Virus record (IMG/VR): IMGVR_UViG_2974586258_000001
Span: 32,001-96,000 of that record
DNA length: 64,000 nt
DNA from: a virus
Lineage: Duplodnaviria > Caudoviricetes
Strand: one strand, 5' to 3'
Positions 5,466-55,435 of the stretch are shown here, in pieces (the first letter of the stretch is position 1; each line of letters opens with the position of its first letter). The notes under the pieces are model-generated. The model worked only from the letters and a program-made list of their open reading frames with translations, was not told the DNA's origin and did not search any database. Position numbers and translations under genes: made by a program.

Positions 5466-6440
5466 ATGGCTGTAAAGAAACCAGAGAATTCAGAAGGTTT
5501 TATAGGCAAAACCTTCAATAATGGAAATTTAGAAATAATAGGAGTTGCAGAAAGAAAACACAATAATATAATGTTTAAGGTAATTTGTAAGATTTGTTCT
5601 CCAGATAAAGAGTTATTTCCTGAAGACTATTTTACTATATCAAAAACACATTTATTAAATGGTAAATTGCCTTGTGGTTGTTCTACTGCTCCTAGGTGGG
5701 ATGAGAGCAAGTGGTTAGTTCGGGCAAGAAGGGCTGTAGAGAACAAAACTTTTATCATTCTTGGTCTTGCTGAAAGTTTTAAAGGATATCTTACAAAGGT
5801 GAGTTGTAAGTGTAAAATAGATGGTCATACTTGGACATTATCGCTTGATAATATAACTCGCGGAATAAGTGGTTGTCCCGTCTGTTCCAAGAAATATAGA
5901 CCAACAGAAGAAGAAGCTTTGGATAAATGTATTGTAATTTGTAAAGAAATGAATTATGATCCGATAGGTTTTCTTGCTGGTTATACAAACGCAAATAAAA
6001 CAATATTTGAATATGTCTGCCCACATCATGGATTACAGAGAGTAAGATATAGTTCATTTATTCATAAAGGAAGTAGGTGCTGGGATTGCGCCAAGGATGT
6101 TGGTAACGGTAGAGGTTACTATCCTAAAAGAGCAGAGGAACAAGATTATTTATATGTGATGAACTTTGATGATAAATATATCAAAGTTGGAAGGAGTTTT
6201 GATGCTTACACAAGAGTTGGTCAGTTACAATGGGAATCAGGATGTTCTAATATAAGAACTGACCATATCTATACTGCAACACATAAAGAAGTTTATAATT
6301 GTGAACAAAAGTTACATTCAATACTACGGGATCATGGTTTGCAGTACAATACAACATGGTCAACGGAAACATTTCATAATCATAGCGGGCACGTTTTAAA
6401 TGAATTACTTCCATTCTGCGGACTAGATAAATTTTATTAA
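5466..6440 (+). CDS. Free-standing putative homing endonuclease, zinc-ribbon repeats plus T5orf172/MUG113 GIY-YIG-like domain (copy 1)
   Basis: CxxC/CxxH repeats; C-terminal LYVMNF..YIKVGRS...R...EQKLH...STETF; paralogous to four other ORFs in the window. Confidence 0.75.
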   Translation: MAVKKPENSEGFIGKTFNNGNLEIIGVAERKHNNIMFKVICKICSPDKELFPEDYFTISKTHLLNGKLPCGCSTAPRWDESKWLVRARRAVENKTFIILGLAESFKGYLTKVSCKCKIDGHTWTLSLDNITRGISGCPVCSKKYRPTEEEALDKCIVICKEMNYDPIGFLAGYTNANKTIFEYVCPHHGLQRVRYSSFIHKGSRCWDCAKDVGNGRGYYPKRAEEQDYLYVMNFDDKYIKVGRSFDAYTRVGQLQWESGCSNIRTDHIYTATHKEVYNCEQKLHSILRDHGLQYNTTWSTETFHNHSGHVLNELLPFCGLDKFY

Positions 6441-7232: not shown

Positions 7233-7430
7233 ATGCAAAGGAGAGTTTTCTTTAATGGTAACTATTACTGTGTCCAAACCATGGAAGGGTTATTACGGTT
7301 AAAACATAGATGGTGGCATGATGTGAATGTGAAGCCAAATTTTACCGCAGCGGAATTAGCGTTTACTTACAAGTATCGCTTAAATAAGCGGCAAGATTAC
7401 AATTGGACCGATTATCAGATGAAAATTTGA
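7233..7430 (+). CDS. Hypothetical protein
   Basis: ORF with GAGGG RBS; last gene before the terminator. Confidence 0.5.
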   Translation: MQRRVFFNGNYYCVQTMEGLLRLKHRWWHDVNVKPNFTAAELAFTYKYRLNKRQDYNWTDYQMKI

Positions 7431-7642: not shown

Positions 7643-10219
7643 TCAATTTATTTGTCTCCATTTATTAGCCACATATACAAACCTAACAGGTTGGTTCAGT
7701 AACAACGCCACATCTGCGTTAGTTTTGGTCTGTATTGTGGCCCCATTCTTGATGGTGATCGCGTTCACACCACTACCATTGAACAGAGTTAGCTCTCGGC
7801 CATTAACCCCACCGGTAATGCCAACAAGGTTAAAGGCCCCCGCTTGCGGACTTAACATAACTACGGTTAACGTATCAGAGACAAGTGTATAATCTGTTGT
7901 TGTTGGGACTGCTACAAATTTATAACCCAAGTTATGTGTTTGGAAATTGTTTCCAAGGCTTGGGCGGGTATTGTCGTATACAAAAGAGTCAGAGAACTGG
8001 TTCCCACGGGTGATATTATTCACTGAAGTGATCGCGGCTGTTTCAATTGAATTAGTACCAAGAACAGGATCTGTAATAGCTTGAACCCATAAGGTTTTAG
8101 CGCTGTCTTTGAAGCTGTTGCCTACTACTTGAATCCCAACACAATTACCTTCTGTTTTTATTTGATAAAAACTTCCAGATGGTGCATCAAGAAATATATT
8201 ATCCTTGATAATAGCAGTACGTACATATGTACCAATAAGAATAGCCTCTCTTTCGTGACTATCGAACTGATTTCCTTGAATAATAATTCCAGAATCTATT
8301 GATTTATCTGTTGGGGTGGCGTTGTCTATTTCAATATGGTTTCTACAATATGCCATACGATTATTTAGTACAGTCACTCTATTGTATTCAAAACCAGCTC
8401 CCCGAGGAGATGAGTTATTAATAAATACATTTCTTGCAAACCCTGATATGTAGTTGTCTCTAATTGTTGCACCTACTGTATATCCTTCGTTGAGGGCCAT
8501 ACCATATGTATCACCACCAGTATATGGGCTAGTAGGATAGGCCCTATTTCCGAATAAACGGTTATTTGCTATTACATCTTCTCTAGACCTTGCAGCTATG
8601 CCCCGCCAACAGTTAATTCCTGTATTTCCAGTAAATACTGACCCATAACTTCCCCCATGAGATGTAGCCATATTAAATTTAGCATTAATTACTGTACATG
8701 TTTTCATAAAACACATAAGACTCGGCATTTCAAAATATGTTATATCAAATGTTTGGGAAGGATTATCAAAATGACATGATATCGCACCACAACCTTGTGA
8801 GCTGATAGTTTTTATGGCATTAAAGGAAAAGTAATTTGGATTTCCGGGGTTTATAGATCCGAATGTAATTTGGGTACTAGCATCAAGAAACACTCTACAA
8901 GACTCTGCTGTGCAATTATGACTATAAACGAATTGTATTGATGCACCAGGTAGCTTCTTGTTATTAAATTTACACCCAGAGACACTAAATTCCCTTCCAT
9001 AATAAATCTCGACTGCTGACCCAGTACCATTCCGTATAAACTTGATACCAGAAATTGAACCAGTGACTCCGTTTATTTTTTTAATGGTGGATATAGTTCT
9101 TACACCTGAATCAGGTTTAGGAGTTAATGGGTACTGGTTGAACACCAAGGGAGATACTGGTGTAATTACTGTGGGTGTTTTTGAATATACCTCAAAAAAT
9201 TCACCGAACCAGCTAGGGGAACCAGATGCTGTAGCAGTACCCAACTGCATAGTTCCAGCATCAGGGGATAAGCACATTGTAGAGCTATGTATAATACCTA
9301 AATCTCCAGCTGCAAATGGAGTTGTATCTCCTATTGTAATAGTTGTTGAAGAGAATGTAGAAATCGGGGATGTTAGTGGGACTTCTGAACCAACTGTACC
9401 TGATAACTTAAAACCAAAGTTTTTGAATGTTACTGTCCCCGTCCCTAAAATTTCGACAGGGGTGGTATACTGTTTATCTACCCCTGTTATGAACAGATAT
9501 TTTCTATTCATGACTAATGGAATTGAATTTGCCACAGCATAATCTAATGCTAGTGCAACATAAGGTGCATCATCATCTATTCCATTGCAAGGTGCATTGA
9601 ACATCTCTGGAGTAACATAAGTAATTGCTGTGTTTAGTAGTAATCTATTGCTCTGGTCTTCCCATGCAGTGGGGCCAAGTCCTCCTGAACTTGCCGGGGT
9701 AGATCCAGCAGGGATTGTTTTTGGTACTGCCCCCTTCCATGCATACCCTTTACCTTCCAATTCAAATAACAGAGCTTGTTTTGAATCAACAATGGTGGCT
9801 CCCTGTTCAAAACTCCCTGCTACAATCGAATACCCAACCTCTGCATAACTTCTCCTCAAAGACTCCCTTATTTGTGGTGTAAGTTTAACAATAGCATCTA
9901 AAGAATAAACTCTCCAATTAACATCCCCTACCGGAGTAACTCCCATGTTAATTGGGTTTGTAGTTGTTGCATTAGGTGCATACCACATTGATCCATCTGT
10001 AAACTTGCGCAGTTGGTTGAAAACAAGTTCCTGCTGTCCTGCTTGCCAATCTAATGGATCTTTAAAATAAAAATTATCAAGAAGTGCTTTACGGACACTT
10101 GGTACTTTACTACCATCTTCTACAATTACTTCTTCTGTTGCAGTACCATTGACAATTTGATGAATTTGTTCACCAGCGGTAATTGTCTTTTCGACTGCGG
10201 CTTGATATGTTAATGCCAT
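7643..10219 (-). CDS. Tailspike / depolymerase 1 (beta-helix)
   Basis: N-terminal anchor; RRSYAEVGYSIVAGSFEQGAT TD-type domain; YVTPEMFNAPCNGIDDDA pectate_lyase_3-type start; Asn/Gly-rich beta-helix. Confidence 0.85.
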   Translation of the reverse strand: MALTYQAAVEKTITAGEQIHQIVNGTATEEVIVEDGSKVPSVRKALLDNFYFKDPLDWQAGQQELVFNQLRKFTDGSMWYAPNATTTNPINMGVTPVGDVNWRVYSLDAIVKLTPQIRESLRRSYAEVGYSIVAGSFEQGATIVDSKQALLFELEGKGYAWKGAVPKTIPAGSTPASSGGLGPTAWEDQSNRLLLNTAITYVTPEMFNAPCNGIDDDAPYVALALDYAVANSIPLVMNRKYLFITGVDKQYTTPVEILGTGTVTFKNFGFKLSGTVGSEVPLTSPISTFSSTTITIGDTTPFAAGDLGIIHSSTMCLSPDAGTMQLGTATASGSPSWFGEFFEVYSKTPTVITPVSPLVFNQYPLTPKPDSGVRTISTIKKINGVTGSISGIKFIRNGTGSAVEIYYGREFSVSGCKFNNKKLPGASIQFVYSHNCTAESCRVFLDASTQITFGSINPGNPNYFSFNAIKTISSQGCGAISCHFDNPSQTFDITYFEMPSLMCFMKTCTVINAKFNMATSHGGSYGSVFTGNTGINCWRGIAARSREDVIANNRLFGNRAYPTSPYTGGDTYGMALNEGYTVGATIRDNYISGFARNVFINNSSPRGAGFEYNRVTVLNNRMAYCRNHIEIDNATPTDKSIDSGIIIQGNQFDSHEREAILIGTYVRTAIIKDNIFLDAPSGSFYQIKTEGNCVGIQVVGNSFKDSAKTLWVQAITDPVLGTNSIETAAITSVNNITRGNQFSDSFVYDNTRPSLGNNFQTHNLGYKFVAVPTTTDYTLVSDTLTVVMLSPQAGAFNLVGITGGVNGRELTLFNGSGVNAITIKNGATIQTKTNADVALLLNQPVRFVYVANKWRQIN

Positions 10220-11217
10220 TAGAAATCCTCCTTTTTTAATTTAGACGTTTTAATTAGATCAAAAACAAGTTGATCAGAGCAAACATTTAGAAGTTCAATA
10301 GATTTAAATGTGGTGTCTTTATGTGAAAGATTTTTATTTTTTGCTTCAGAAATAATCTTTTGCTCAGTTTTAAATACGTCATAATGTGTTCCAGACCATA
10401 CTGAAATAATGGTAGGTACTATGTTATATTGCAATTTCAACTGTCCAAATCTAGTGTTTAATTTAAAAGACCTACCTATTTTTAAATACTCGTTATTGAA
10501 ATTTAAAAGGTATAAAAAGTCTCTATCATCCTTACGTTTAGGATAATACCCAAACAGCCCCGGAGCGACTCCGCAATCTCTGGCACAAGCCATGCAACCA
10601 TTTCTTTTATCTTTAAAATCAGTAAATGTTATGAATTTAACTCCATGTTGTGGACACCTATACTGTAGTTTTGACTTTTGGTTTATGTAGCCGTCAGGAA
10701 ACCCTAAGAAAGTGTAATTTCTCTCTTTACATATTTTTTCGCAGTATGTAAAAACTTCTTCATATGACATTCTTTTCAATACACTTAATTTTTTGTTGCG
10801 ACATATTTTACAACAGGCACCATTATGCATAATATTTACAAGACTAGATTCCCAAATATTACCATCTCTTAGGCATTCACATTTTACTTTTGTATTTTGC
10901 CCGTGAAAAATTTCAGTATAATCGTGAACAATAAAACCTTTTTGTTTTGCTGCTCGTTTTGCTTTTATCAAAAACTCGTAAGCATTCCAGTTACGTTTCT
11001 TAGCACACCCACAAGGTAATTTGCCAGCCCTTAAGTCCGATAGTCCACAAGTAAAATAACCTAAAGGAAACAGTTCTTTATCTAGCGAACATACTTTGCA
11101 AACAACTTTATATTTTGAATGTTTTGATTTTTCCAACAGTTCAACAACTTCCAATCTACCATTATTAAATGTCTCACCTACAAAATCTTCTGCCTTCTTT
11201 CTATAAGTTAGTGACAC
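10219..11217 (-). CDS. Free-standing zinc-ribbon/GIY-YIG-like endonuclease (copy 2)
   Basis: Same N-terminus (F.G.TFNNG.LE..CxxCS.DKELFP.GYF..PCGC) and C-terminus (LYLLNF..YLKIGRS) as copy 1. Confidence 0.75.
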   Translation of the reverse strand: MSLTYRKKAEDFVGETFNNGRLEVVELLEKSKHSKYKVVCKVCSLDKELFPLGYFTCGLSDLRAGKLPCGCAKKRNWNAYEFLIKAKRAAKQKGFIVHDYTEIFHGQNTKVKCECLRDGNIWESSLVNIMHNGACCKICRNKKLSVLKRMSYEEVFTYCEKICKERNYTFLGFPDGYINQKSKLQYRCPQHGVKFITFTDFKDKRNGCMACARDCGVAPGLFGYYPKRKDDRDFLYLLNFNNEYLKIGRSFKLNTRFGQLKLQYNIVPTIISVWSGTHYDVFKTEQKIISEAKNKNLSHKDTTFKSIELLNVCSDQLVFDLIKTSKLKKEDF

Positions 11218-26426: not shown

Positions 26427-27416
26427 TTAAACTAATTTGAGATTAATTAGAGCTGAAATAAATAGATCTTCAAGTATTTCCAAGTCTTTCTCTTCTATTG
26501 TTTCAGTAAAACCATCTTGAAAAATTTCAGGTAATACTACACCGCGCATCAAAGATTTAGACCTTTTTATAAAACTTTCAACGTACTGGGCTATTCTCCC
26601 GTCCTTCCAAGTTTTAATATATAAAATTTCATAGTTAAAATGTGTTTTTGATGCCTGTTCTTCTATTCTCTTTTTAACTTTTAAATTAGTAATTCCAAAT
26701 TTAATAAAGTTGTGGGAATCCTTTGACCACTTTACTATGTAAAATGAGCCAGCTTTGTTTGGCCTGTATCCGTGGCTTGCGCAACTGGGGCACCTAGATT
26801 CTTTGCTTATAAAATCTATGTACCTGACAGTCTGCACTCCATGCGTTGGACATTCGTATTGAAATCTTGCACTAGGTGCAGATTTATAACCATCAACAAA
26901 ACCAATAGGTACGTAATTTTCTGTTTTACATATTTTAACGCACCTCTCCAAGGCTACAGTTTCTTTTGTTTTCAGTCTATCGGCCAATTCCCTGTATTTA
27001 CATTTAGGGCAACCACTAGACCTATTAAGTACATTGTCAGCTCTTGTTATCCAAGTGTGTTTATCAATGTTGCAAAGGAGTTTAATTTTTGTGGACTTAC
27101 CTTTATAATTTTCGGTGAACCCGCAAACCTGAACATCTTTTCCATTTAAATTGCGAGAGATTCTTAGTAAGTATTGCCATGATTTCCACCTATGATTTTT
27201 CGCGCAGCCGCATGGTTTCTTCCCTTCTTTTAAGTGATATTTTGTACTGACGAAATAACCATCTGGAAATAGCTCTCTATCCTTAGAACACTCTGTGCAT
27301 GTAACTTTGAAAGTAGTTTGTTTTCCTTTAATATTCTCATGCACACCTACAACTTCTAACTTACCATCTTTGGATTTCCAACCAATAAAGGTGTTTTCCT
27401 TTTCGCTGTTAGTGAT
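26427..27416 (-). CDS. Free-standing zinc-ribbon/GIY-YIG-like endonuclease (copy 3); probable ATC start at 27416
   Basis: Family N-terminus FIGWKSKDGKLEVVG extends upstream of the GTG at 27344; C-terminal FYIVKW..FIKFGITN...DGFTET. Confidence 0.72.
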   Translation of the reverse strand: MTNSEKENTFIGWKSKDGKLEVVGVHENIKGKQTTFKVTCTECSKDRELFPDGYFVSTKYHLKEGKKPCGCAKNHRWKSWQYLLRISRNLNGKDVQVCGFTENYKGKSTKIKLLCNIDKHTWITRADNVLNRSSGCPKCKYRELADRLKTKETVALERCVKICKTENYVPIGFVDGYKSAPSARFQYECPTHGVQTVRYIDFISKESRCPSCASHGYRPNKAGSFYIVKWSKDSHNFIKFGITNLKVKKRIEEQASKTHFNYEILYIKTWKDGRIAQYVESFIKRSKSLMRGVVLPEIFQDGFTETIEEKDLEILEDLFISALINLKLV

Positions 27417-33605: not shown

Positions 33606-34628
33606 TTAAACTTTCTTCTTTGTTAAGATATACAGAGCGTCGGTAATAAGGTTTTCCAAAACAACTAGATTATTAATGTAGGATGTTTCTGTAAATCCAT
33701 CTTGGAACTCTTCTTTGGATACAACACCAATTTCAATTTCAGAGTTTTTAATGAAGTTTTCAATGTACAATGGAATAGATCCATCTTCAAGAGTAGCAGA
33801 CCAGATTCTTTTATATCCGTATTCTGTTTCACGTTTCTGCTTTTTAATTCTTGCAAGTTCTTTTTGGTTTGTTATTCCGAATTTTATAAAACTATGACTG
33901 TCTTTTGTCCACTGATAAACATAGAAAGTTCCATGTTTGCTGGTAGAATACCCATTAATAGCGCAACCATTACAACGACTTCCTTGATTTACAAAACTGT
34001 GATAACTGACATTTTGTTTTCCATGAGTTTTACAGATGTACTCAAACCTAGTTTTGTGGGTAGTTCTATACTTATCAACAAAACCTACAACATCATAATC
34101 CATTTCTTTGCAGATGTCAATGCATTTTTGTAGTGCTTCTTGTTCCGTTGGTTTATAAACGCCCGAGCACTTAGGGCAACCCTTGTCACTATTAATAATG
34201 TCATTAATTCTTGCAATCCATTTATGCCCATCTTTTAAACATTCAAGGTTTAGTTTGGTGTTTTGATTTTTAAACTCTTCTGTAAAACCGTGGACGATGA
34301 ACCCTTTCTTTTCTCCTGCTCTACGAGCTAATATTAAATACTGCCAGTCAAACCACCTTACATTCTTGCCACAACCGCATGGTTTTAAATCATTAACCAA
34401 ATTACTTTTGACACTAACAAAATAGCCATCAGGGAATAATTCAGGATCTTTGGAACATTCAGTACAGGCAACTCTGAATGTAGTATGTGTACCTTGTTTT
34501 CCATCGATACCAATAACTTCTAATCTCCCATCTGGACTTTTCCAACCAATAAAATCTTCTGGTTTTTGTCGTTTTGCTCTCTTCTTCTTTTCTGTCATAT
34601 TTAAATTACCTCTTGAAATTATGTCCAC
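33606..34628 (-). CDS. Free-standing zinc-ribbon/GIY-YIG-like endonuclease (copy 4); start probably ATG at 34598
   Basis: FIGWKSPDGRLEV..CTECSKDPELFPDGYF; FIKFGITN..DGFTET; own TTGACT-16-TAAAAT promoter at 34662-34635. Confidence 0.75.
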   Translation of the reverse strand: MDIISRGNLNMTEKKKRAKRQKPEDFIGWKSPDGRLEVIGIDGKQGTHTTFRVACTECSKDPELFPDGYFVSVKSNLVNDLKPCGCGKNVRWFDWQYLILARRAGEKKGFIVHGFTEEFKNQNTKLNLECLKDGHKWIARINDIINSDKGCPKCSGVYKPTEQEALQKCIDICKEMDYDVVGFVDKYRTTHKTRFEYICKTHGKQNVSYHSFVNQGSRCNGCAINGYSTSKHGTFYVYQWTKDSHSFIKFGITNQKELARIKKQKRETEYGYKRIWSATLEDGSIPLYIENFIKNSEIEIGVVSKEEFQDGFTETSYINNLVVLENLITDALYILTKKKV

Positions 34629-36267: not shown

Positions 36268-38109
36268 TTAAAAGTAGCGACTTTTATTTAAACCTGATAT
36301 CATTGTAGGTGCATTGATTGTTGGCATTGTTACTGCTGAAACACTCATTGTTTTAGCAAGATAGGAGAAAACTGAAGCACAAGCATCAGGCCAGTCATCT
36401 TTTCTGTCTGCCGTGGACCTTTCTCCATCGAAACTTTCAAGCTCTTTATAGAAAGCTGCAAGTGTTGCAGGTTCAAAAGTATCTTCAACAATTGATACTA
36501 ACCCATTCTGGCAAGCAGAACTGAACGCCTCAAACCGTTTTAGTTTTGATTTATTAGATGGATTGGGGTCTTCTTTTACAATAAAACCCTCATTAGTAAA
36601 CATTTTAGCCATCTCGTTAAACGCAAACGCACCAGCTTGTCCTGGATCTTTAGGTAAAACCACAATAGTATCTGAGCCATCATGTTTGGCCTGTAACAAC
36701 ATCAAAGTATCACGAACACCGGGGCGTTTTCTAAACCTACCGTTCTGTCTAGTTAATTCATCAAGAGTCTCTTGAATATAATCCCCAACAATAATATAAG
36801 TATCTTGATTTGTTTTTAGCATTTTGATACTTGCAGTATAGTCAGGATATCTATTCTTATCAGATGGTTCAGCCGAAGCTAAGTCCCATCCTCGTGCTTC
36901 TGTACAGTTCAATGGTACTTTGTCTAGTTTATTTAACCAACTTCGCTGGAAATAGTTAGAACCTTCTGGACGAGCATACCAGTTACCGTCCAATAGTCTG
37001 GCGCGGTTAATTGGTGACTGAGCTTTCAGTGCAGACAAATACTTTGGGTTAGATTTTATTAGTGCTGGGTTATCGAAGATAGTTCCGCTGATAAAAGTAA
37101 ATGACATAGGGGGAATATAAATTCTTTCACCATCATTTTCTTGATAACAAATATCAGGGTACGCTTCTGCTAACTCTTCCTCTGTATTAGCAAAAATAGG
37201 TTTATCATCAACAATAACGAAGTACCTAATAACTCCGTCTTTACTCTGGTCTGGATAGCCTTCTGGATCCAAATACCACTCAACGAACGATAACACCCAA
37301 CTGTCCGGTGATGGATTACAAGTACCCATACAGAAACTATCGCATTCTGCTTCAGAACGGAGACGACCTATTAGATATAAAAATTGAGATTGTGAGAAAT
37401 GTGTTAATTCGTCGAAACCAACAAAAGAATATTGTACTTTTATGTTCGGAAAGGCTCGCTAGACCTATCCCGCATCACTTATGTTTATCAACATTAGCTG
37501 CTGCTCTATGTCTCCATAGAAGTTCAGACTATATCATCCACAACAATATGTTGCGGCCTACCGTTTCGAACACCATTAGCTTGTGTCCTACACCGCTACA
37601 TTCATCACGGCTAGTCGTTGGGCATTTAGAAACAAATGTTTCATTTAGCACAGGATTGTCCTTAACTTAATACTAGGAGTTTCCCTGTTTAGGTAGGTTT
37701 GCTACACTAATCACTTAATGTAGGGGCTACAATTTAACCCTTGATGGTTGGCCTCGGCTGTATCTTCGTGCTCTAAGTGGGTGTATTTAAGGTTCCCACC
37801 ACCTGTTCCTTCGAAAATAATCTCCATGTCTTTTTCACGGATTCTCGGATTAAGTGGTCTGAAAAGTTTCTTGCTTTCTGTAAACAATCCTCCGGCACCT
37901 TTAAGGGGGCCAGTTGTTCTTCGAAACATTACACCTTCAAAATTAGGGTCTTGATATGCGTGTTTTAATGCTTTTATTAACAGAAGTCTCGACTTGCCAC
38001 TACCTGCGGCACCGCCGTATATCATTACATCTACTTTTGTATCAAAAGCTTTTCGTTGTTTTCCCTCTTGAGGGGCTAAATTAACAACATTATTTTGTTT
38101 AGTTGCCAA
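36268..38109 (-). CDS. terL: Terminase large subunit, spliced complement(join(36268..37436,37737..38109)), about 513 aa
   Basis: Walker A YGGAAGSGKS. Splicing restores HQG|LQYSFVGFDELTHF (Walker B). TCNP coupling motif; RGWDLA and DDWPDA nuclease motifs. Confidence 0.95.
37437..37736 (-). mobile_element. ORF-less group I intron (IA2-like, 300 nt) in terL
   Basis: 5' exon GGGU pairs with IGS GCCC; P10 AUUGUA/UACAAU; R CCCAACGACUA; S GAUAUAGUCUGAA; terminal G at 37437. Splicing restores the frame. Confidence 0.93.
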
Positions 38110-38570: not shown

Positions 38571-39809
38571 TTAATATTTACTATGTAAATCAACCTCTTG
38601 GAATTCACAATTATCTAATAATTTATTTAAAATATATAAAGAATCATTTTCAAAACACTCTGTTGACCAACCTACAGGATATTGGAAGTTGCGTTCACGA
38701 AGTTCTTTATGCAATTCTTGCTCATAATCGTAGATTTCCTGATGTGTTGCAGTAAAGATCCGTAACTTCTTGATATTCCTGATTCCAGACATAGATGGTA
38801 TCCTCAAATCTTTAATTCTCTCATCTACATCAAAAGATCTTCCCACCTTAATAAACCTATTATTGAAATTTAAAACGTAAAGGAAATCTTGTTCATCTTT
38901 TCTTTCTGGAAAATAACCATTACCATTTCTCAACTCCCTGTGTCTATCTTTAGAACAACCCATACAACGGTTGCCGTTATGCACAAAGTTACTATAAGAT
39001 ATAGACTGCTTACCATGGACAGGACAAATATATTCGAAATAAGATTTTTGAGTTTTGTACCCGTCAGGAAACCCTTGTGGTTCGTAATTCATTTCTCTAC
39101 AAATGACTATACAACGTTCTAATGCAATGCCCTCTGGTAATCTGTACAACGCAGCTATCCTATCTTTAGAGCAATAATTGCATCTACTACCTTTGTAGAA
39201 AAAATCAGCATATTTTACATTTTGCTTCCCGTGTTTTGGGCAAACATATTCAAAACGAGACTTGGCATTTTTATACCCTCCAACAAAACCAATCGCAATA
39301 TAACCCATCTCTTGGCATATTAAACTGCAATTATTCATTGCTATTGCGTTATCCAACTTACACCTTTTAGCAGTACTACTATTTTTACACTCTGGGCAAC
39401 CACTCTTACCATTAATAACAGATGTAATAGATGTAGATTGCCATCTGTTCCCATCTTTCAGACACTCCAGATCCAATTTCGTATCTTGTCCTTGATAATC
39501 CTCTGCAAATCCGTGAACTATAAATCGACCTACTCCTAATCTCTCAACTATAATTATATATTGCCAATCTTCCCATTTATAAACAGAGCACCCGCAAGGC
39601 TTTTTATCGGCCTTTAAATTATACTTAGTACTAACAAAATAGCCATCTGGAAATAGTTCTTTATCTTTGGAACATTCAGTGCAAGTAACTTTATACTTTA
39701 TTGACTCATTTTTATTGATTGAGTAAACATCAACAACCTCCAACTTCCCGTCTCCAGATTTCCAACCTATGAACTCTTTTGCTTTTTCTAGTTTACCACT
39801 ATTTTCCAA
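38571..39809 (-). CDS. Free-standing zinc-ribbon/GIY-YIG-like endonuclease (copy 5, extra repeat)
   Basis: Family N-terminus; two tandem C...C.EM.Y...GF..GYK..KS.FEY.CP.HGKQ repeats; LYVLNF..FIKVGRS..STECF. Confidence 0.75.
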   Translation of the reverse strand: MENSGKLEKAKEFIGWKSGDGKLEVVDVYSINKNESIKYKVTCTECSKDKELFPDGYFVSTKYNLKADKKPCGCSVYKWEDWQYIIIVERLGVGRFIVHGFAEDYQGQDTKLDLECLKDGNRWQSTSITSVINGKSGCPECKNSSTAKRCKLDNAIAMNNCSLICQEMGYIAIGFVGGYKNAKSRFEYVCPKHGKQNVKYADFFYKGSRCNYCSKDRIAALYRLPEGIALERCIVICREMNYEPQGFPDGYKTQKSYFEYICPVHGKQSISYSNFVHNGNRCMGCSKDRHRELRNGNGYFPERKDEQDFLYVLNFNNRFIKVGRSFDVDERIKDLRIPSMSGIRNIKKLRIFTATHQEIYDYEQELHKELRERNFQYPVGWSTECFENDSLYILNKLLDNCEFQEVDLHSKY

Positions 39810-42457: not shown

Positions 42458-42547
42458 TGGTAGCCCTGTTCGGTAACGATCCGAAGTAACCCACTTATCT
42501 GGTGTACGAGTTTATAAATCTCGGTACTTTCCTTAAGCTACAGGGCC
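42458..42547 (-). tRNA. Atypical tRNA with anticodon UAU (Ile) and long variable arm, 90 nt
   Basis: Acceptor GGCCCTG/CAGGGCT-A-CCA; anticodon loop TTTATAA; T stem TTCGG/CCGAA with unusual loop ATCGTTA. Confidence 0.8.
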
Positions 42548-50149: not shown

Positions 50150-50241
50150 ATTGTAATATAGCTTTGTGTGAATGTCAAGAGTAAATTTTCACTGAGTTTT
50201 ATGTAATATGTGTTGACAATAGGTTGTTACCTATTTACTAT
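50150..50241. promoter_or_regulatory. Divergent sigma70 promoters
   Basis: Minus TTGACA-17-TACAAT (50178-50150); plus TTGACA-17-TACTAT (50213-50241). Confidence 0.8.
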
Positions 50242-50273
50242 GATCCAAGTTAACCAAACAAGAGGTAAAGTGT

Positions 50274-50828
50274 ATGACAACAATTATCATTGATGAAAAG
50301 ACAAAGGCAATTTATGCAGACAGTCAAACCACCACAACAGAAACAGCTTCAAACTCTAGTATTATTTTTCCTAAGAATGAGTTTAAAGTAATAACACTTC
50401 AACCAGATGCTGAGAAAGTTTTCTATATTTCTAAAGAGGTGGGTTGGATTACCGCTACAGGTTGCGTAAAAATGCTGAATGAGTGTGTACAATTAAGTGC
50501 AAGGAACAATGAATTTACCTTACCTGATATTTCTAAAGGTTACAATGATGTTAAAATTATCAATGTGAATTACGGCATAGGTAGTAAAATTGATGTTATG
50601 GTGTATCAACCAAAGACAAAGAAAATTTATTGTCTCTTTGAAAAACATTATTGGAAAGATTCTTGGACTCGACTTGGCACAGACTCTATTCTGTTTTATG
50701 GAAGCGGGTCACTGTATGCCGAAGGTGCTTACCGAGCTTGTAACGATCCTGTTCAATCTATTATTGCAGCTTCAAAGTGTGACTTATATACAAACGCAAA
50801 CGTTAAAGTTCATAAACTAGAAGATTAA
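50274..50828 (+). CDS. HslV/proteasome-beta-like Ntn peptidase
   Basis: MTTI...IYADSQTT N-terminal Thr nucleophile; GSGS..A.GA; A.KCD.YT. Confidence 0.75.
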   Translation: MTTIIIDEKTKAIYADSQTTTTETASNSSIIFPKNEFKVITLQPDAEKVFYISKEVGWITATGCVKMLNECVQLSARNNEFTLPDISKGYNDVKIINVNYGIGSKIDVMVYQPKTKKIYCLFEKHYWKDSWTRLGTDSILFYGSGSLYAEGAYRACNDPVQSIIAASKCDLYTNANVKVHKLED

Positions 50829-50837
50829 AATTCAGGT

Positions 50838-51020
50838 AAAAGAAAAGCCACAACCTTTCGGAAGTAGCTTTAATTGTGTTAAGAGAGGAGAGGCTATGAA
50901 AGAAAATAGAAATAAGTTATATTGCATAACTAAAGAGCAAGGAGAGGATAGGGTGGATGTACAACTAGAGAAGGAGGACTCATGATCATTGTACATCACT
51001 TGTGGCTCACAGAGCCTAAT
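50838..51020 (-). ncRNA. Putative CU-rich small RNA with an anti-Shine-Dalgarno loop
   Basis: Downstream of tRNA-Pro; hairpin displaying UCCUCCUU; two more CCUCUCCU tracts; ends in an intrinsic terminator. Confidence 0.55.
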
Positions 51021-51027
51021 CTTAAAT

Positions 51028-51102
51028 TGGTTCGAGTGTGGTGAATCGAACACCAGAATTTTCCGCCCCAAACGGAACGACATACCACTTGCCTACACTC
51101 GG
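51028..51102 (-). tRNA. tRNA-Pro(UGG) with C1:A72 mismatch
   Basis: CCGAGTG/CACTCGA-A-CCA; anticodon arm TTCCG-TTTGGGG-CGGAA; T arm TGGTG-TTCGATT-CACCA. Confidence 0.92.
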
Positions 51103-51126
51103 AATATTTTTGCTAATCTATAAACA

Positions 51127-51155
51127 ATATTAACATGGAAATTATAAAATGTCAA
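51127..51155 (-). promoter_or_regulatory. Promoter for tRNA-Pro (TTGACA-17-TAATAT)
   Basis: Member of the 9-copy motif. Confidence 0.78.
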
Positions 51156-54727: not shown

Positions 54728-55435
54728 ATGGATAAAACGAGTCTAGGTGATCGTATGAAGAAGTACGAAAAGGTAGCAAAAACTAATTTGATGCAAAGAA
54801 CACCTGTAATTATCAGGTTAGATGGTAAAGCATTCCATACTTATACTAAAAATTGCGATAAACCTTTTGACCAAGATTTGCATAAAATCAGAAAAGAGGT
54901 TCTTGAGTATCTTTGTGAAAATATCCAAGGTTGTGTTCTAGGTTATAGTCAATCTGATGAGATTACACTGGTTCTTAAAGATTGGCACACGTATAGTAGT
55001 CAAGCGTGGTTCGACAACAGTGTACAAAAACTATGTTCTATTAGTGCCAGTATGACTACTGCTATGTGGAACAGTTTAGTTTACAAGTATAACCTACAAG
55101 ACAAGTTTTCAGGACTGGCAGTATTTGATGCTAGGTGTTTTAACATTACAATCAACGAGGTTGTTAATTGTTTGATTTGGAGACAGCAAGATTGGGAACG
55201 AAACTCTGTACAAATGTTAGCAAGATCCTTTTATTCACAGAAGCAATGCCACGGTAAGAGCTGTAAAGACTTGGTAACAAAAATAGAAGAAGAACAAGGG
55301 GTTGTATGGGGAAATCTCGCTACTTGGCAGAAGAGAGGTGAGTTTTGGTTTGATGAAATATACGAAGAGACTCCTAAATTTAAAGATGTTCGTCAAGTTA
55401 TTGAGGAACTTTTGTATCTACAAAATGATAACTAA
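54728..55435 (+). CDS. tRNA-His guanylyltransferase Thg1-like protein (3'-5' polymerase)
   Basis: RMKKYE, IIRLDGKAFHTYT, YSQSDEI, FDAR and WRQQD..RNS motifs. Confidence 0.92.
   Translation: MDKTSLGDRMKKYEKVAKTNLMQRTPVIIRLDGKAFHTYTKNCDKPFDQDLHKIRKEVLEYLCENIQGCVLGYSQSDEITLVLKDWHTYSSQAWFDNSVQKLCSISASMTTAMWNSLVYKYNLQDKFSGLAVFDARCFNITINEVVNCLIWRQQDWERNSVQMLARSFYSQKQCHGKSCKDLVTKIEEEQGVVWGNLATWQKRGEFWFDEIYEETPKFKDVRQVIEELLYLQNDN

What the first reader, a model, noticed from the sequence alone, without database searches (positions are those of the whole stretch)
50838..51020. tRNA-trailer RNA displaying an anti-Shine-Dalgarno sequence in a hairpin loop
Seen on the minus strand between tRNA-Pro and a terminator: stem GAUGUACAA/UUGUACAUC enclosing GAG-UCCUCCUU-CUC (loop at 50978-50971), plus further tracts UCCUCUCCUU and CCUCUCCUCUCUU. 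Known: 16S rRNA ends in ACCUCCUUA, and C-rich loops of sRNAs such as RNAIII pair with SD sequences. Inference: a phage sRNA that sequesters strong AGGAG(G) RBSs (common in this phage's early and middle genes) or GGA-rich host RNAs such as CsrB, acting as a translational switch late in infection.
Basis: partly seen in the sequence, partly recalled or inferred. Interest (0 to 1): 0.8.

Follow-up and report, generated by a model that had tools for sequence, protein, structure and literature searches.

The report
Conserved phage small RNA with anti-Shine-Dalgarno tracts
An Aeromonas phage and its relatives keep a folded, non-coding RNA gene of about 190 bases that displays three pyrimidine tracts mirroring ribosome-binding sites, so it probably dampens translation of some messages, though no target or transcript has yet been seen.

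Summary
On the minus strand, 51027-50838 lies between tRNA-Pro(UGG) and an intrinsic terminator. It folds into three hairpins, and UCCUCCUU (50978-50971) sits in a hairpin loop. Two more CU tracts are single-stranded.

It is more than a tRNA trailer. Nine distinct variants exist, in Aeromonas Plateaulakevirus-type phages and environmental contigs. All nine keep the same TTGACA-17-TAATAT (TG-extended) promoter, the element and a terminator. Five of the nine lack the tRNA.

The fold is supported by covariation: 26 pairs, 223 of 230 cells paired, 7 pairs with compensatory changes. The 16 G-U pairs, the promoter and the U-run all place the RNA on the minus strand. No ORF is conserved on either strand, and no Rfam family matches.

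The most likely function is a trans-acting sRNA whose CUCCUU-type tracts pair with AAGGAG-type Shine-Dalgarno regions. This is inferred only. No extended, conserved target was found in six phage genomes. Host genomes could not be searched, and no discrete transcript was seen. The promoter looks like an early, host-RNA-polymerase type, so a "late switch" is unsupported. The + strand CsrA-sponge reading is rejected.

This is a new family of a known kind (CU-rich-seed sRNAs), and of moderate interest.

The parts
51127..51155 (-). Promoter TTGACA-17 nt-TAATAT with TG at -15/-14 (extended -10)
   Evidence: Consensus scan, 10 of 12 matches plus TG. Sequence verified. The same -35, spacing and -10 are seen by eye in 9 of 9 variants.
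51103..51126 (-). Short A/U-rich leader between the predicted start site (about 51118-51121, inferred from -10 spacing) and the tRNA
   Evidence: The start site is inferred, not observed.
51028..51102 (-). tRNA-Pro(UGG) with encoded CCA and a C1-A72 mismatch; an optional module of the unit
   Evidence: ARAGORN. Rfam tRNA 47.9 bits. Present in 4 of 9 variants: window, phiA009, PhAER-3, PhAER-4. Absent in 5.
50838..51027 (-). The non-coding RNA body (about 190 nt), from the A/U-rich linker after CCA to the terminator U-run
   Evidence: Covariance model R1 finds a single copy in the 122,963-bp genome (113.2 bits).
51004..51016 (-). P1 hairpin GGCUC-UGU-GAGCC
   Evidence: Five pairs; 44 of 45 cells paired across 9 variants, with no covariation.
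50953..50999 (-). P2 long hairpin (11 outer and 3-4 inner pairs)
   Evidence: All cells paired in 9 variants. Four pairs show compensatory double changes between the two alleles, and two pairs switch G-U/A-U.
50971..50978 (-). Apical loop UCCUCCUU (7 nt identical to the 16S anti-SD core CCUCCUU); AGUCCUCCUUCU is invariant
   Evidence: Invariant in 9 of 9 variants. P(unpaired) 0.95-1.00 in 8 of 8 folded.
50939..50956 (-). CU tract 2 (CCACCCUAUCCUCUCCUU), single-stranded. Its length and sequence vary between variants, but it is always pyrimidine-rich and contains CUCUCC
   Evidence: P(unpaired) 0.81 in the window and 0.34-0.90 in 6 of the other 7 variants (the script's pattern found no tract 2 in PAc).
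50915..50931 (-). P3 hairpin with a CAA triloop
   Evidence: Three of its 6 pairs show compensatory changes.
50881..50894 (-). CU tract 3 (GCCUCUCCUCUCUU), preceded by UUUCAU. Together they are the mirror image of an SD plus AUG
   Evidence: P(unpaired) 0.89 in the window.
50838..50871 (-). Intrinsic terminator hairpin plus UUUUCUUUU
   Evidence: Folds. Two stem alleles occur in the family, both followed by the same U-run.

Best explanation
This is a self-contained gene for a roughly 190-nt non-coding RNA of Aeromonas Plateaulakevirus-type myophages. Host RNA polymerase transcribes it on the minus strand from a near-consensus sigma-70 promoter, and transcription ends at an intrinsic terminator.

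In this phage a tRNA-Pro sits between the promoter and the RNA. The RNA would therefore be released by tRNA processing: RNase P at the tRNA 5' end, and an endonuclease cut in the A/U-rich AUUUAAGAUU linker (inferred).

The RNA folds into three conserved hairpins. These keep three pyrimidine tracts unpaired: the UCCUCCUU loop, a CUCUCCUU tract and a CUCUCCUCUCUU tract.

The most likely mode of action (inferred) is antisense pairing of these CUCCUU-type tracts with purine-rich Shine-Dalgarno/start regions of the AAGGAG type. Targets could be phage early/middle mRNAs, host mRNAs or both. Pairing would lower their translation, as known CU-rich-seed sRNAs do.

Shown here: the gene architecture, conservation, strand, fold, non-coding nature and exposure of the tracts. 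Inferred: expression, processing, the targets and the effect.
For: Architecture: promoter, tRNA, terminator and fold (z -3.72).

Conservation: 9 distinct variants. The element is about 76% identical between the window and PhAER-4, while the neighbouring 115-aa protein is only 54% identical.

Independence from the tRNA: 5 of 9 variants lack it. In phiA047 the unit is separated from its usual upstream gene by two inverted genes and stays intact.

Structure: 26 pairs, 223 of 230 cells paired, 7 pairs with changes on both sides. Zero of 500 column shuffles reach the observed covariation score, and slid controls give 22-53% paired.

Strand: 16 G-U cells become A-C on the other strand (223 against 208 of 230 cells paired).

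Non-coding: no ORF is shared across 8 variants in six frames.

Exposure: loop P(unpaired) 0.95-1.00 in 8 of 8 variants.

SD context: in crude ORF calls, AAGGAG lies upstream of 70 of 235 starts. It is commoner in small-ORF and + module genes (26 of 54) than in late structural genes (6 of 37; Fisher p 0.0018).

Precedent: Burkholderia double-hairpin 'toxic' sRNAs and Neisseria NmsRs carry unpaired CU-rich stretches complementary to RBSs, and overexpression slows growth (passages of PMC5688073).
Against: No transcript of this size or strand has been seen. Metatranscriptome contigs cover relatives but also run into the upstream gene, so they could be DNA or read-through.

No extended, conserved target was found. 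In 5 relatives' genomes the 12-nt loop complement occurs exactly only at the sRNA gene itself; within one mismatch there is one further site, in phiA009, which has no counterpart in the other relatives. The window has one additional 1-mismatch site. Complements of tracts 2 and 3 give only the gene itself or 2-mismatch SD-like sites.

The best duplex energies with phage start regions (-21.9 and -21.5 kcal/mol for the loop) are no better than the best random genomic window (-21.5). The one striking 11-nt match (start region at window 7233) lies in DNA absent from relatives.

Pairing limited to a 6-8-nt SD core would also hit the phage's own genes, and it would need very high RNA levels to matter.

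The SD statistics rest on my own ORF calls, whose starts were chosen by SD strength.

The covariation comes from one phage genus. Much of it reflects a single allele swap in P2, so independent events are few (about 4-6).
Confidence: 0.45

Rival explanations
1. Protein sponge or decoy. The G-poor, C/U-rich 95-nt stretch between P2 and the terminator binds and titrates a pyrimidine-preferring RNA-binding protein. Candidates are Rho (whose loading sites are C-rich and G-poor), ribosomal protein S1, or Hfq. The RNA would not act by pairing with mRNAs.
For: The stretch 50966-50872 has 27 C and 41 U but only 6 G in 95 nt, and it is predicted to be largely unpaired. Tract 2 varies in sequence and length but keeps its pyrimidine composition. 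That fits recognition of composition as well as it fits a fixed seed. No specific mRNA target was found.
Against: AGUCCUCCUUCU is invariant and held in a closed 8-nt loop. That looks like a defined pairing seed rather than a composition signal. No RNA sponge for Rho or S1 is known to me (recalled). Rho would translocate off a free RNA rather than stay bound.
Confidence: 0.15
2. Anti-sRNA or RNA sponge. The CU tracts pair with GA/GGA-rich regulatory RNAs of the host (CsrB/RsmZ-like RNAs or purine-rich sRNA seeds) rather than with mRNAs. This would resemble the tRNA 3'ETS-leuZ sponge or the prophage AgvB/AsxR sponges.
For: In this phage the RNA lies in the position of a tRNA 3' external spacer. 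A precedent exists for such a spacer acting as a sponge, and for phage-derived sponges (passage of bioRxiv 10.1101/2021.04.25.441314). The CU tracts are complementary to GGA-containing motifs.
Against: Five of 9 variants have no tRNA, so the spacer position is incidental.
Confidence: 0.1
3. No trans-acting role. The region is a structured spacer: a processing and termination cassette for the upstream operon and tRNA, and a landing pad for inserted modules. It would be conserved for cis reasons.
For: There is no terminator between the upstream 115-aa gene and the unit, so read-through transcripts would end here. The site has taken up a tRNA in some variants and a roughly 150-nt module in others. 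It also borders variable inverted genes.
Against: The unit has its own near-consensus promoter in 9 of 9 variants. Compensatory changes maintain P2 and P3, which are not the terminator. A terminator cassette has no need for an invariant 12-nt loop.
Confidence: 0.12
4. Mimic of the 16S rRNA 3' end. The displayed CCUCCUU acts as a decoy for a factor that recognises the anti-SD. Candidates are an rRNA-cutting toxin of a defence system (MazF-mt3 cuts at UCCUU; recalled, not checked here) or a ribosome-associated protein.
For: Seven bases are identical to the anti-SD core and are presented unpaired. UCCUU occurs in the loop and in tract 2 (CTCCTT at two places). Phage RNAs that mimic antitoxin RNAs are known (recalled).
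Against: Similarity to 16S does not extend beyond 7 nt. No such toxin is known for Aeromonas from anything seen here. Tract 3 lacks UCCUU in most variants.
Confidence: 0.06
5. The + strand is the functional one. It would be either a GGA-rich CsrA sponge or an mRNA for micro-ORFs that start at the SD-plus-ATG mirror images of the CU tracts.
For: The + strand carries AAGGAGGACTCATG and GAGAGGAGAGGCTATGAAAG, which look like perfect start regions. A 29-aa ORF exists in the window and 21-34-aa ORFs in PhAER-3/4. The ATG mirror (UUUCAU) is present in 8 of 9 variants.
Against: The peptides are not conserved. Hand translation of the aligned sequences gives 3 to 34 aa, with different frames between the two P2 alleles and the ORF cut short by the 150-nt module. 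No + strand promoter is evident, and in PAc and L061 nothing converges on the element. The fold is weaker on the + strand (z -2.10 against -3.72; 208 against 223 of 230 cells paired). No Rfam CsrB/Rsm match was found.
Confidence: 0.03

Closest known systems
Betaproteobacterial 'toxic small RNAs' / double-hairpin sRNAs (Rfam RF02278; ncS03, ncS05, ncS27, ncS62 of Burkholderia cenocepacia) and Neisseria NmsRs
   Same: These have unpaired CU-rich stretches that are reverse complements of ribosome-binding sites. Several such stretches occur per RNA, and each RNA ends in a terminator. Overexpression slows growth, and the family was found because it is toxic when cloned in E. coli (passages of PMC5688073 and PMC4603805).
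   Different: There is no sequence-family membership. The window gives no RF02278 match at E<=10. The TS9 relative gives only 20.7 bits against a cut-off of 50. The phage RNA is also two to three times longer, has three hairpins plus a terminator, and is carried by a virulent-type myophage rather than a bacterial chromosome.
C/U-rich-seed sRNAs in general (S. aureus RNAIII and RsaE, B. subtilis RoxS, Salmonella CyaR, H. pylori RepG)
   Same: A hairpin loop or single strand rich in C/U pairs with the SD region of target mRNAs.
   Different: Those RNAs are host-encoded and have defined regulons. Here no target is known, and three tracts share the full CUCC(U)U core of the anti-SD.
tRNA 3' external transcribed spacer RNA 3'ETS-leuZ of E. 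coli
   Same: It is a functional RNA lying between the last tRNA of a transcript and the operon terminator, and it is released by RNase E (passage of bioRxiv 10.1101/2021.04.25.441314). In this window the RNA has exactly that position.
   Different: 3'ETS-leuZ exists only as part of the tRNA operon and sponges sRNAs. The phage RNA keeps its own promoter and occurs without any tRNA in 5 of 9 variants.
T4 RegB endoribonuclease (a functional analogue, not a relative)
   Same: It is a phage device aimed at Shine-Dalgarno sequences (GGAG) of early mRNAs, and it speeds the early-to-late switch (passages of PMC3014915).
   Different: RegB is a protein nuclease that needs S1. Here the agent would be an antisense RNA, and the effect is unproven.
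Small stable RNAs co-transcribed with T4 tRNAs (rnaC, rnaD)
   Same: These are phage small RNAs encoded in a tRNA transcription unit, with function still unknown. This is recalled; PMC3014915 contains the term rnaC, but I did not read that passage.
   Different: No sequence or structural relation was tested.

Membership tests
Rfam RF02278 Betaproteobacteria toxic sRNA | Match to the covariance model at or above the gathering score (50 bits) | tested here: not met
   Window 50830-51030: no RF02278 match at E<=10. Own genome: none at E<=10. TS9 relative: 20.7 bits, E 0.058, over tract 3 plus terminator only.
Rfam RF02278 Betaproteobacteria toxic sRNA | Two short hairpins (about 57-92 nt in all) with CU-rich unpaired regions complementary to RBSs | tested here: inconclusive
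   CU-rich unpaired regions are present. However, the RNA is about 190 nt with three hairpins plus a terminator.
Trans-acting base-pairing sRNA with a C/U-rich seed | Own promoter and intrinsic terminator; not translated | tested here: met
   The promoter is present in 9 of 9 variants. Terminator. No ORF is conserved in 8 variants. Transcription itself was not observed.
Trans-acting base-pairing sRNA with a C/U-rich seed | Conserved fold that keeps the seed unpaired | tested here: met
   223 of 230 cells paired and 7 compensatory pairs. Loop P(unpaired) 0.95-1.00 in 8 of 8 variants.
Trans-acting base-pairing sRNA with a C/U-rich seed | Complementary target sites beyond a generic SD core, conserved among relatives | tested here: not met
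   Phage genomes only: own genome plus 5 relatives. Host genomes could not be reached.
Trans-acting base-pairing sRNA with a C/U-rich seed | Hfq (or other chaperone) binding and regulation of targets | not testable with these tools
   Only the U-run after the terminator and the A/U-rich stretch before it are visible.
tRNA 3'ETS-derived RNA | Exists only as the 3' spacer of a tRNA transcript | tested here: not met
   The tRNA is absent in 5 of 9 variants that keep the promoter and element.
CsrB/RsmY/RsmZ-type CsrA sponge | Many GGA motifs, mostly in loops, on the transcribed strand; match to the Rfam families | tested here: not met
   There are zero GGA in the 190-nt minus-strand RNA. The strand was assigned by G-U pairs, promoter and U-run. 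No Rfam match was found.
tRNA (RF00005) | Cloverleaf match above the gathering score, with an anticodon | tested here: met
   ARAGORN calls tRNA-Pro(tgg). Rfam gives 47.9 bits against a cut-off of 29. The whole-window and 701-base scans missed it, so their filters are lossy.

The most novel reading that the evidence does not exclude
The RNA is a phage-made, multi-site copy of the ribosome's anti-Shine-Dalgarno sequence, produced in bulk from a very strong promoter. It would compete with 30S subunits for AAGGAG-type ribosome-binding sites. These sites mark host mRNAs and the phage's own early and DNA-metabolism genes. As the RNA accumulates, translation would shift towards the late structural mRNAs, whose SDs are shorter. 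This would be an RNA counterpart of T4 RegB and a general way for phages to reprogramme translation. Unchecked earlier notes of this scan report CU-rich anti-SD RNAs in several unrelated phages.
Probability: 0.15. Interest if true: 0.8.

Novelty: new member of a known kind. Interest (0 to 1): 0.55.

Why it matters
Very few small RNAs of virulent phages have a known role. One review-type passage calls their function in lytic phages 'less obvious' (PMC8244752).

This case offers a clean, conserved and easily mutated candidate. It has a strong promoter, three defined pyrimidine tracts, and natural variants with and without a tRNA or a 150-nt insert. The host genus can be cultured.

If the tracts do mask ribosome-binding sites, this would show that a phage controls translation with an antisense copy of the anti-SD. 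It would also link the scattered CU-rich phage RNAs seen elsewhere into one strategy. If they do not, the RNA is still an undescribed structured family whose binding partner is worth finding.

Tried and rejected
1. Rfam. The whole window at gathering scores and 701 bases at E<=10 gave nothing for the element. Both scans also missed the tRNA, so I repeated them on 201 and 346 bases. These gave only chance-level snoRNA hits and the weak RF02278 hit in TS9.

2. Coding. No ORF is shared on either strand. The + strand micro-ORF at the tract-3 mirror varies from 3 to 34 aa and was rejected.

3. Expression. One run search and one lay of 4 runs were made. Three metatranscriptome runs hold contigs of tRNA-less, long-form relatives. 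Those contigs also cover the promoter and the upstream gene and may be DNA. They give no start, end or strand, so there is no verdict. The lack of cover over 50200-50857 in those runs proves nothing.

4. Phage targets. I computed duplex energies against 235 crude start regions, and ran exact and near-exact complement searches in the window and 5 relatives. Nothing beyond generic SD pairing emerged. The 11-nt match at the start region of window 7233-7430 was dropped because that DNA has no counterpart in any Aeromonas phage record.

5. Host targets.

6. Wider homologues:
- blastn 'distant' in 50,697 phage records found 7 Aeromonas phage records. It also found 6 Salmonella phage records that match only the terminator.
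- tblastn with the upstream protein found 8 records.
- IMG/VR gave one contig.
- Metagenomes gave 2 loci of the same variant.
- A looser pattern gave 47 IMG/VR loci, of which model R1 accepted only the known contig.
- Genome contigs gave one contig of a MAG labelled Saccharibacteria, probably a mis-binned phage.

7. The 150-nt insert module of relatives has no Rfam match and shows no covariation because it is almost invariant. It is unexplained.

8. The Kimelman et al. 2012 paper (PMC3317161) is not held. Its claims are cited only through PMC5688073 and PMC4603805.

Full report
WHAT IS THERE

The window comes from a 122,963-bp phage genome with direct terminal repeats and 35% G+C. Its closest named relatives are Aeromonas phages of the genus Plateaulakevirus: phiA009/phiA019, TS9/DL, phiA047 and PAc. 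The unclassified PhAER-3 and PhAER-4 are also close.

PHROG matches show a myovirus:
- Structural genes lie on the minus strand from about 7.6 to 40 kb.
- A block of small unknown ORFs lies on the minus strand from 40 to 54 kb.
- A divergent + strand DNA-metabolism block starts at 54.2 kb.

The finding lies in the small-ORF block. Reading the minus strand gives, in order:
- a promoter TTGACA-17-TAATAT with TG at -15/-14 (51155-51127);
- a 24-nt leader;
- tRNA-Pro(UGG) with encoded CCA (51102-51028);
- an A/U-rich linker;
- the element (51017-50838).

The element consists of hairpin P1 (51016-51004), a long hairpin P2 (50999-50953) with apical loop UCCUCCUU at 50978-50971, a single-stranded CCACCCUAUCCUCUCCUU, hairpin P3 with a CAA loop (50931-50915), a U-rich stretch, UUUCAU-AGCCUCUCCUCUCUU, and a terminator hairpin with UUUUCUUUU.

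IS IT MORE THAN CHANCE?

The 193-nt RNA folds 3.7 sd better than dinucleotide shuffles on the minus strand, with 0 of 200 shuffles as good. On the + strand it is only 2.1 sd better.

More important, the element is conserved. I collected nine distinct variants:
- the window;
- phiA009 (identical to phiA019);
- an IMG/VR and metagenome variant (L005/L006/L007);
- PhAER-4;
- PhAER-3;
- TS9 (identical to DL);
- phiA047;
- PAc;
- a contig binned into a 'Saccharibacteria' MAG, which is evidently phage (L061).

The block AGUCCUCCUUCU is invariant in all nine. The window and PhAER-4 elements are about 76% identical, while the adjacent 115-aa protein is 54% identical.

On the 9-sequence alignment, 26 proposed pairs give 223 of 230 cells paired. 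Seven pairs change on both sides with pairing kept. Zero of 500 column shuffles reach the observed covariation score. Sliding the 3' partners by 1-3 columns drops pairing to 22-53%.

A caveat applies. All sequences come from one genus, and most of the P2 changes belong to one allele swap (type A in 4 variants, type B in 5). Independent events therefore number perhaps four to six.

WHICH STRAND, AND IS IT CODING?

Sixteen cells are G-U pairs, which would be A-C mismatches in a + strand RNA (223 against 208 of 230 cells paired). The promoter and the U-run after the terminator are also on the minus strand.

In PAc and L061 the next gene downstream is co-oriented and has its own promoter, so nothing converges on the element there.

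Six-frame analysis of 8 variants finds no shared ORF.

The + strand mirror images of the CU tracts look like perfect start regions, for example GAGAGGAGAGGCUAUGAAAG. The peptides they would start range from 3 to 34 aa, and they change frame between alleles or are cut by an insert. I therefore treat them as mirror images, not genes.

The transcribed strand has no GGA at all. This removes the CsrA-sponge alternative.

IT IS A GENE OF ITS OWN, NOT JUST A tRNA TRAILER

Five of the nine variants (TS9, phiA047, PAc, L006, L061) have no tRNA. In them the same promoter is followed after about 25 nt by P1. Metatranscriptome and metagenome contigs from wastewater also carry this tRNA-less junction (joint 51024/51119).

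In phiA047 two inverted genes separate the unit from its usual upstream gene, yet the promoter, RNA and terminator stay intact.

Six variants carry an almost invariant module of about 150 nt between P3 and tract 3. The window and PhAER-3/4 lack it.

The unit is thus modular: promoter, optional tRNA, P1-P2-tract 2-P3, optional 150-nt module, tract 3, terminator.

The presence of the tRNA, the P2 allele, the insert and the terminator allele are not congruent with one another. This indicates recombination within the unit.

WHAT IT IS NOT

Rfam holds no family for it. Because the larger scans also missed the tRNA (found only), I rely on the small-window scans.

The only near-hit is RF02278 (Betaproteobacteria toxic sRNA). 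It scores 20.7 bits against a cut-off of 50 in the TS9 relative, and nothing in the window or the whole genome.

A covariance model of the 5' core (R1) finds one copy in the genome. It finds none among 47 loosely matching IMG/VR loci apart from the known contig.

HOW IT MOST LIKELY WORKS

Shown: all nine variants keep a near-consensus sigma-70 promoter with an extended -10. Several other such promoters lie in this block. Transcription by host RNA polymerase, hence from early in infection, is therefore the natural expectation. This is inference, since no transcript data exist.

In the window the primary transcript would be about 283 nt. RNase P and an endonuclease cut in the AUUUAAGAUU linker would free the tRNA and a roughly 190-nt RNA (inferred from general tRNA processing).

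Shown: the fold leaves three pyrimidine tracts unpaired. Their common core is CUCC(U)U. CUCCUU occurs twice in the window RNA and is the exact complement of AAGGAG.

In my crude ORF set, AAGGAG precedes 70 of 235 starts. It is commoner in the small-ORF and + strand modules (26 of 54) than in late structural genes (6 of 37; p 0.0018). In that set the major head, sheath and portal genes have only GGAG- or GAGG-type sites. Starts were chosen partly by SD strength, so this is suggestive only.

Inferred: the RNA pairs with AAGGAG-type start regions and lowers their translation. The Burkholderia double-hairpin 'toxic' sRNAs and Neisseria NmsRs do this with their CU-rich unpaired stretches (PMC5688073, passages). 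T4 reaches a comparable end with the RegB nuclease, which cuts GGAG in early SDs (PMC3014915, passages).

EVIDENCE AGAINST, STATED PLAINLY

- No discrete RNA has been seen (one search is uninformative).
- No extended target was found. In five relatives' genomes the 12-nt loop complement occurs exactly only at the gene itself; within one mismatch there is one stray site in phiA009, not shared by the others. The window has one extra 1-mismatch site.
- The tract-3 complement (22 nt, up to 3 mismatches) and the tract-2 complement (15 nt, up to 2 mismatches) give the gene itself or ordinary SD-like sites.
- The best duplex energies with phage start regions equal the best random window.
- The one striking match is in DNA that relatives lack.
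- Host genomes could not be searched.

The pairing model therefore rests on motif logic, exposure and precedent. I give it 0.45. That the locus is a real structured non-coding RNA gene on the minus strand I hold at about 0.85.

Rivals, with my odds:
- a protein decoy for a pyrimidine-binding factor such as Rho, S1 or Hfq: 0.15 (the 95 nt between P2 and the terminator have 6 G, 27 C and 41 U);
- a sponge for purine-rich host RNAs: 0.10;
- a cis processing and termination cassette with no trans role: 0.12;
- a 16S 3'-end mimic for an anti-SD-recognising factor: 0.06;
- a + strand function: 0.03.

COMPARISON AND NOVELTY

In kind, this is a CU-rich-seed small RNA. Within that kind it is a new, uncatalogued family confined, as far as these collections show, to one group of Aeromonas phages.

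It works like RF02278/NmsR-type RNAs but is not a member of that family. It sits like a tRNA 3'ETS RNA in four variants but fails the defining dependence on a tRNA.

My literature searches found no description of this RNA or of sRNAs in this genus:
- 'Plateaulakevirus': 7 papers hold the term, 5 were listed, and none of those is on RNAs.
- 'phage-encoded' + 'small RNA' + 'anti-Shine-Dalgarno': 1 paper, on Caulobacter.

Earlier notes of this scan list CU-rich anti-SD RNAs in several other phages. One of them lies at the end of a tRNA operon. These notes are unchecked AI leads, and I did not test them. If they are real, the theme is recurrent.

VERDICT

However, the tRNA linkage is incidental, 'late' timing is unsupported, and the targets are unknown. 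Interest is 0.55.

Noticed in passing
L001:3184-3335, L003:2592-2743, L004:1871-2022, L006:792-943, L058:3087-3242, L061 about 700-850 (absent from the window; it would lie between 50915 and 50894): A module of about 150 nt is inserted in the sRNA of six relatives. Its central roughly 70 nt are almost invariant and can form alternative helices (GGCAAC/GUUGCC against CGUUGCG/CGCAGCG). It has no Rfam match and no covariation because it barely varies. Its GA-rich parts can pair with the CU tracts in some predicted folds. Its function is unknown.
   Followed up: partly
window 50274-50828 (+): The gene converging on the sRNA terminator matches the HslV-family peptidase PHROG (phrog_1040, E 1.9e-17) and has its own TTGACA-17-TACTAT promoter. 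phiA009 carries a different, trypsin-like peptidase gene in the same inverted position. PAc and L061 have no gene there.
   Followed up: partly
window 54728-55435 (+): A phage gene matches tRNA-His guanylyltransferase (Thg1-like; phrog_4717, E 1.3e-89). It lies 3.6 kb from the tRNA-Pro/sRNA unit.
   Followed up: no
window 37504-37746 (-) and 37711-38109 (-): A group I intron (Rfam RF00028, 85.3 bits) lies next to an ORF matching part of the large terminase subunit. This suggests an intron-split terminase gene.
   Followed up: no
window 5799-6440, 10219-11217, 26427-26987, 33606-34598, 38571-39809: Five paralogous endonuclease genes (phrog_681, HNH-related) are scattered through the replication and structural modules. 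They are likely homing endonucleases at mosaic boundaries.
   Followed up: no
window 42458-42547 (-): ARAGORN calls a 90-nt tRNA-Ile(UAU). Rfam did not report it at gathering scores in the whole-window scan, but that scan also missed the genuine tRNA-Pro.
   Followed up: no
window 50838-50874 (-): The terminator (37 nt) is 89-92% identical to a sequence in six T5-like Salmonella phage records (for example vB_SenS_UTK0010). Nothing else of the element matches there.
   Followed up: no
window 51000-51140: Rfam scans of 64 kb (gathering scores) and of 701 bases (E<=10) both failed to report tRNA-Pro. A 151-base scan scores it at 47.9 bits. Negative Rfam results from the larger scans should therefore not be trusted.
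   Followed up: yes
L061 (contig of a MAG labelled Candidatus Saccharibacteria): A 45-kb contig binned as Saccharibacteria carries the complete promoter-sRNA-terminator unit together with the upstream phage gene. It is almost certainly a phage contig mis-binned into the MAG.
   Followed up: no
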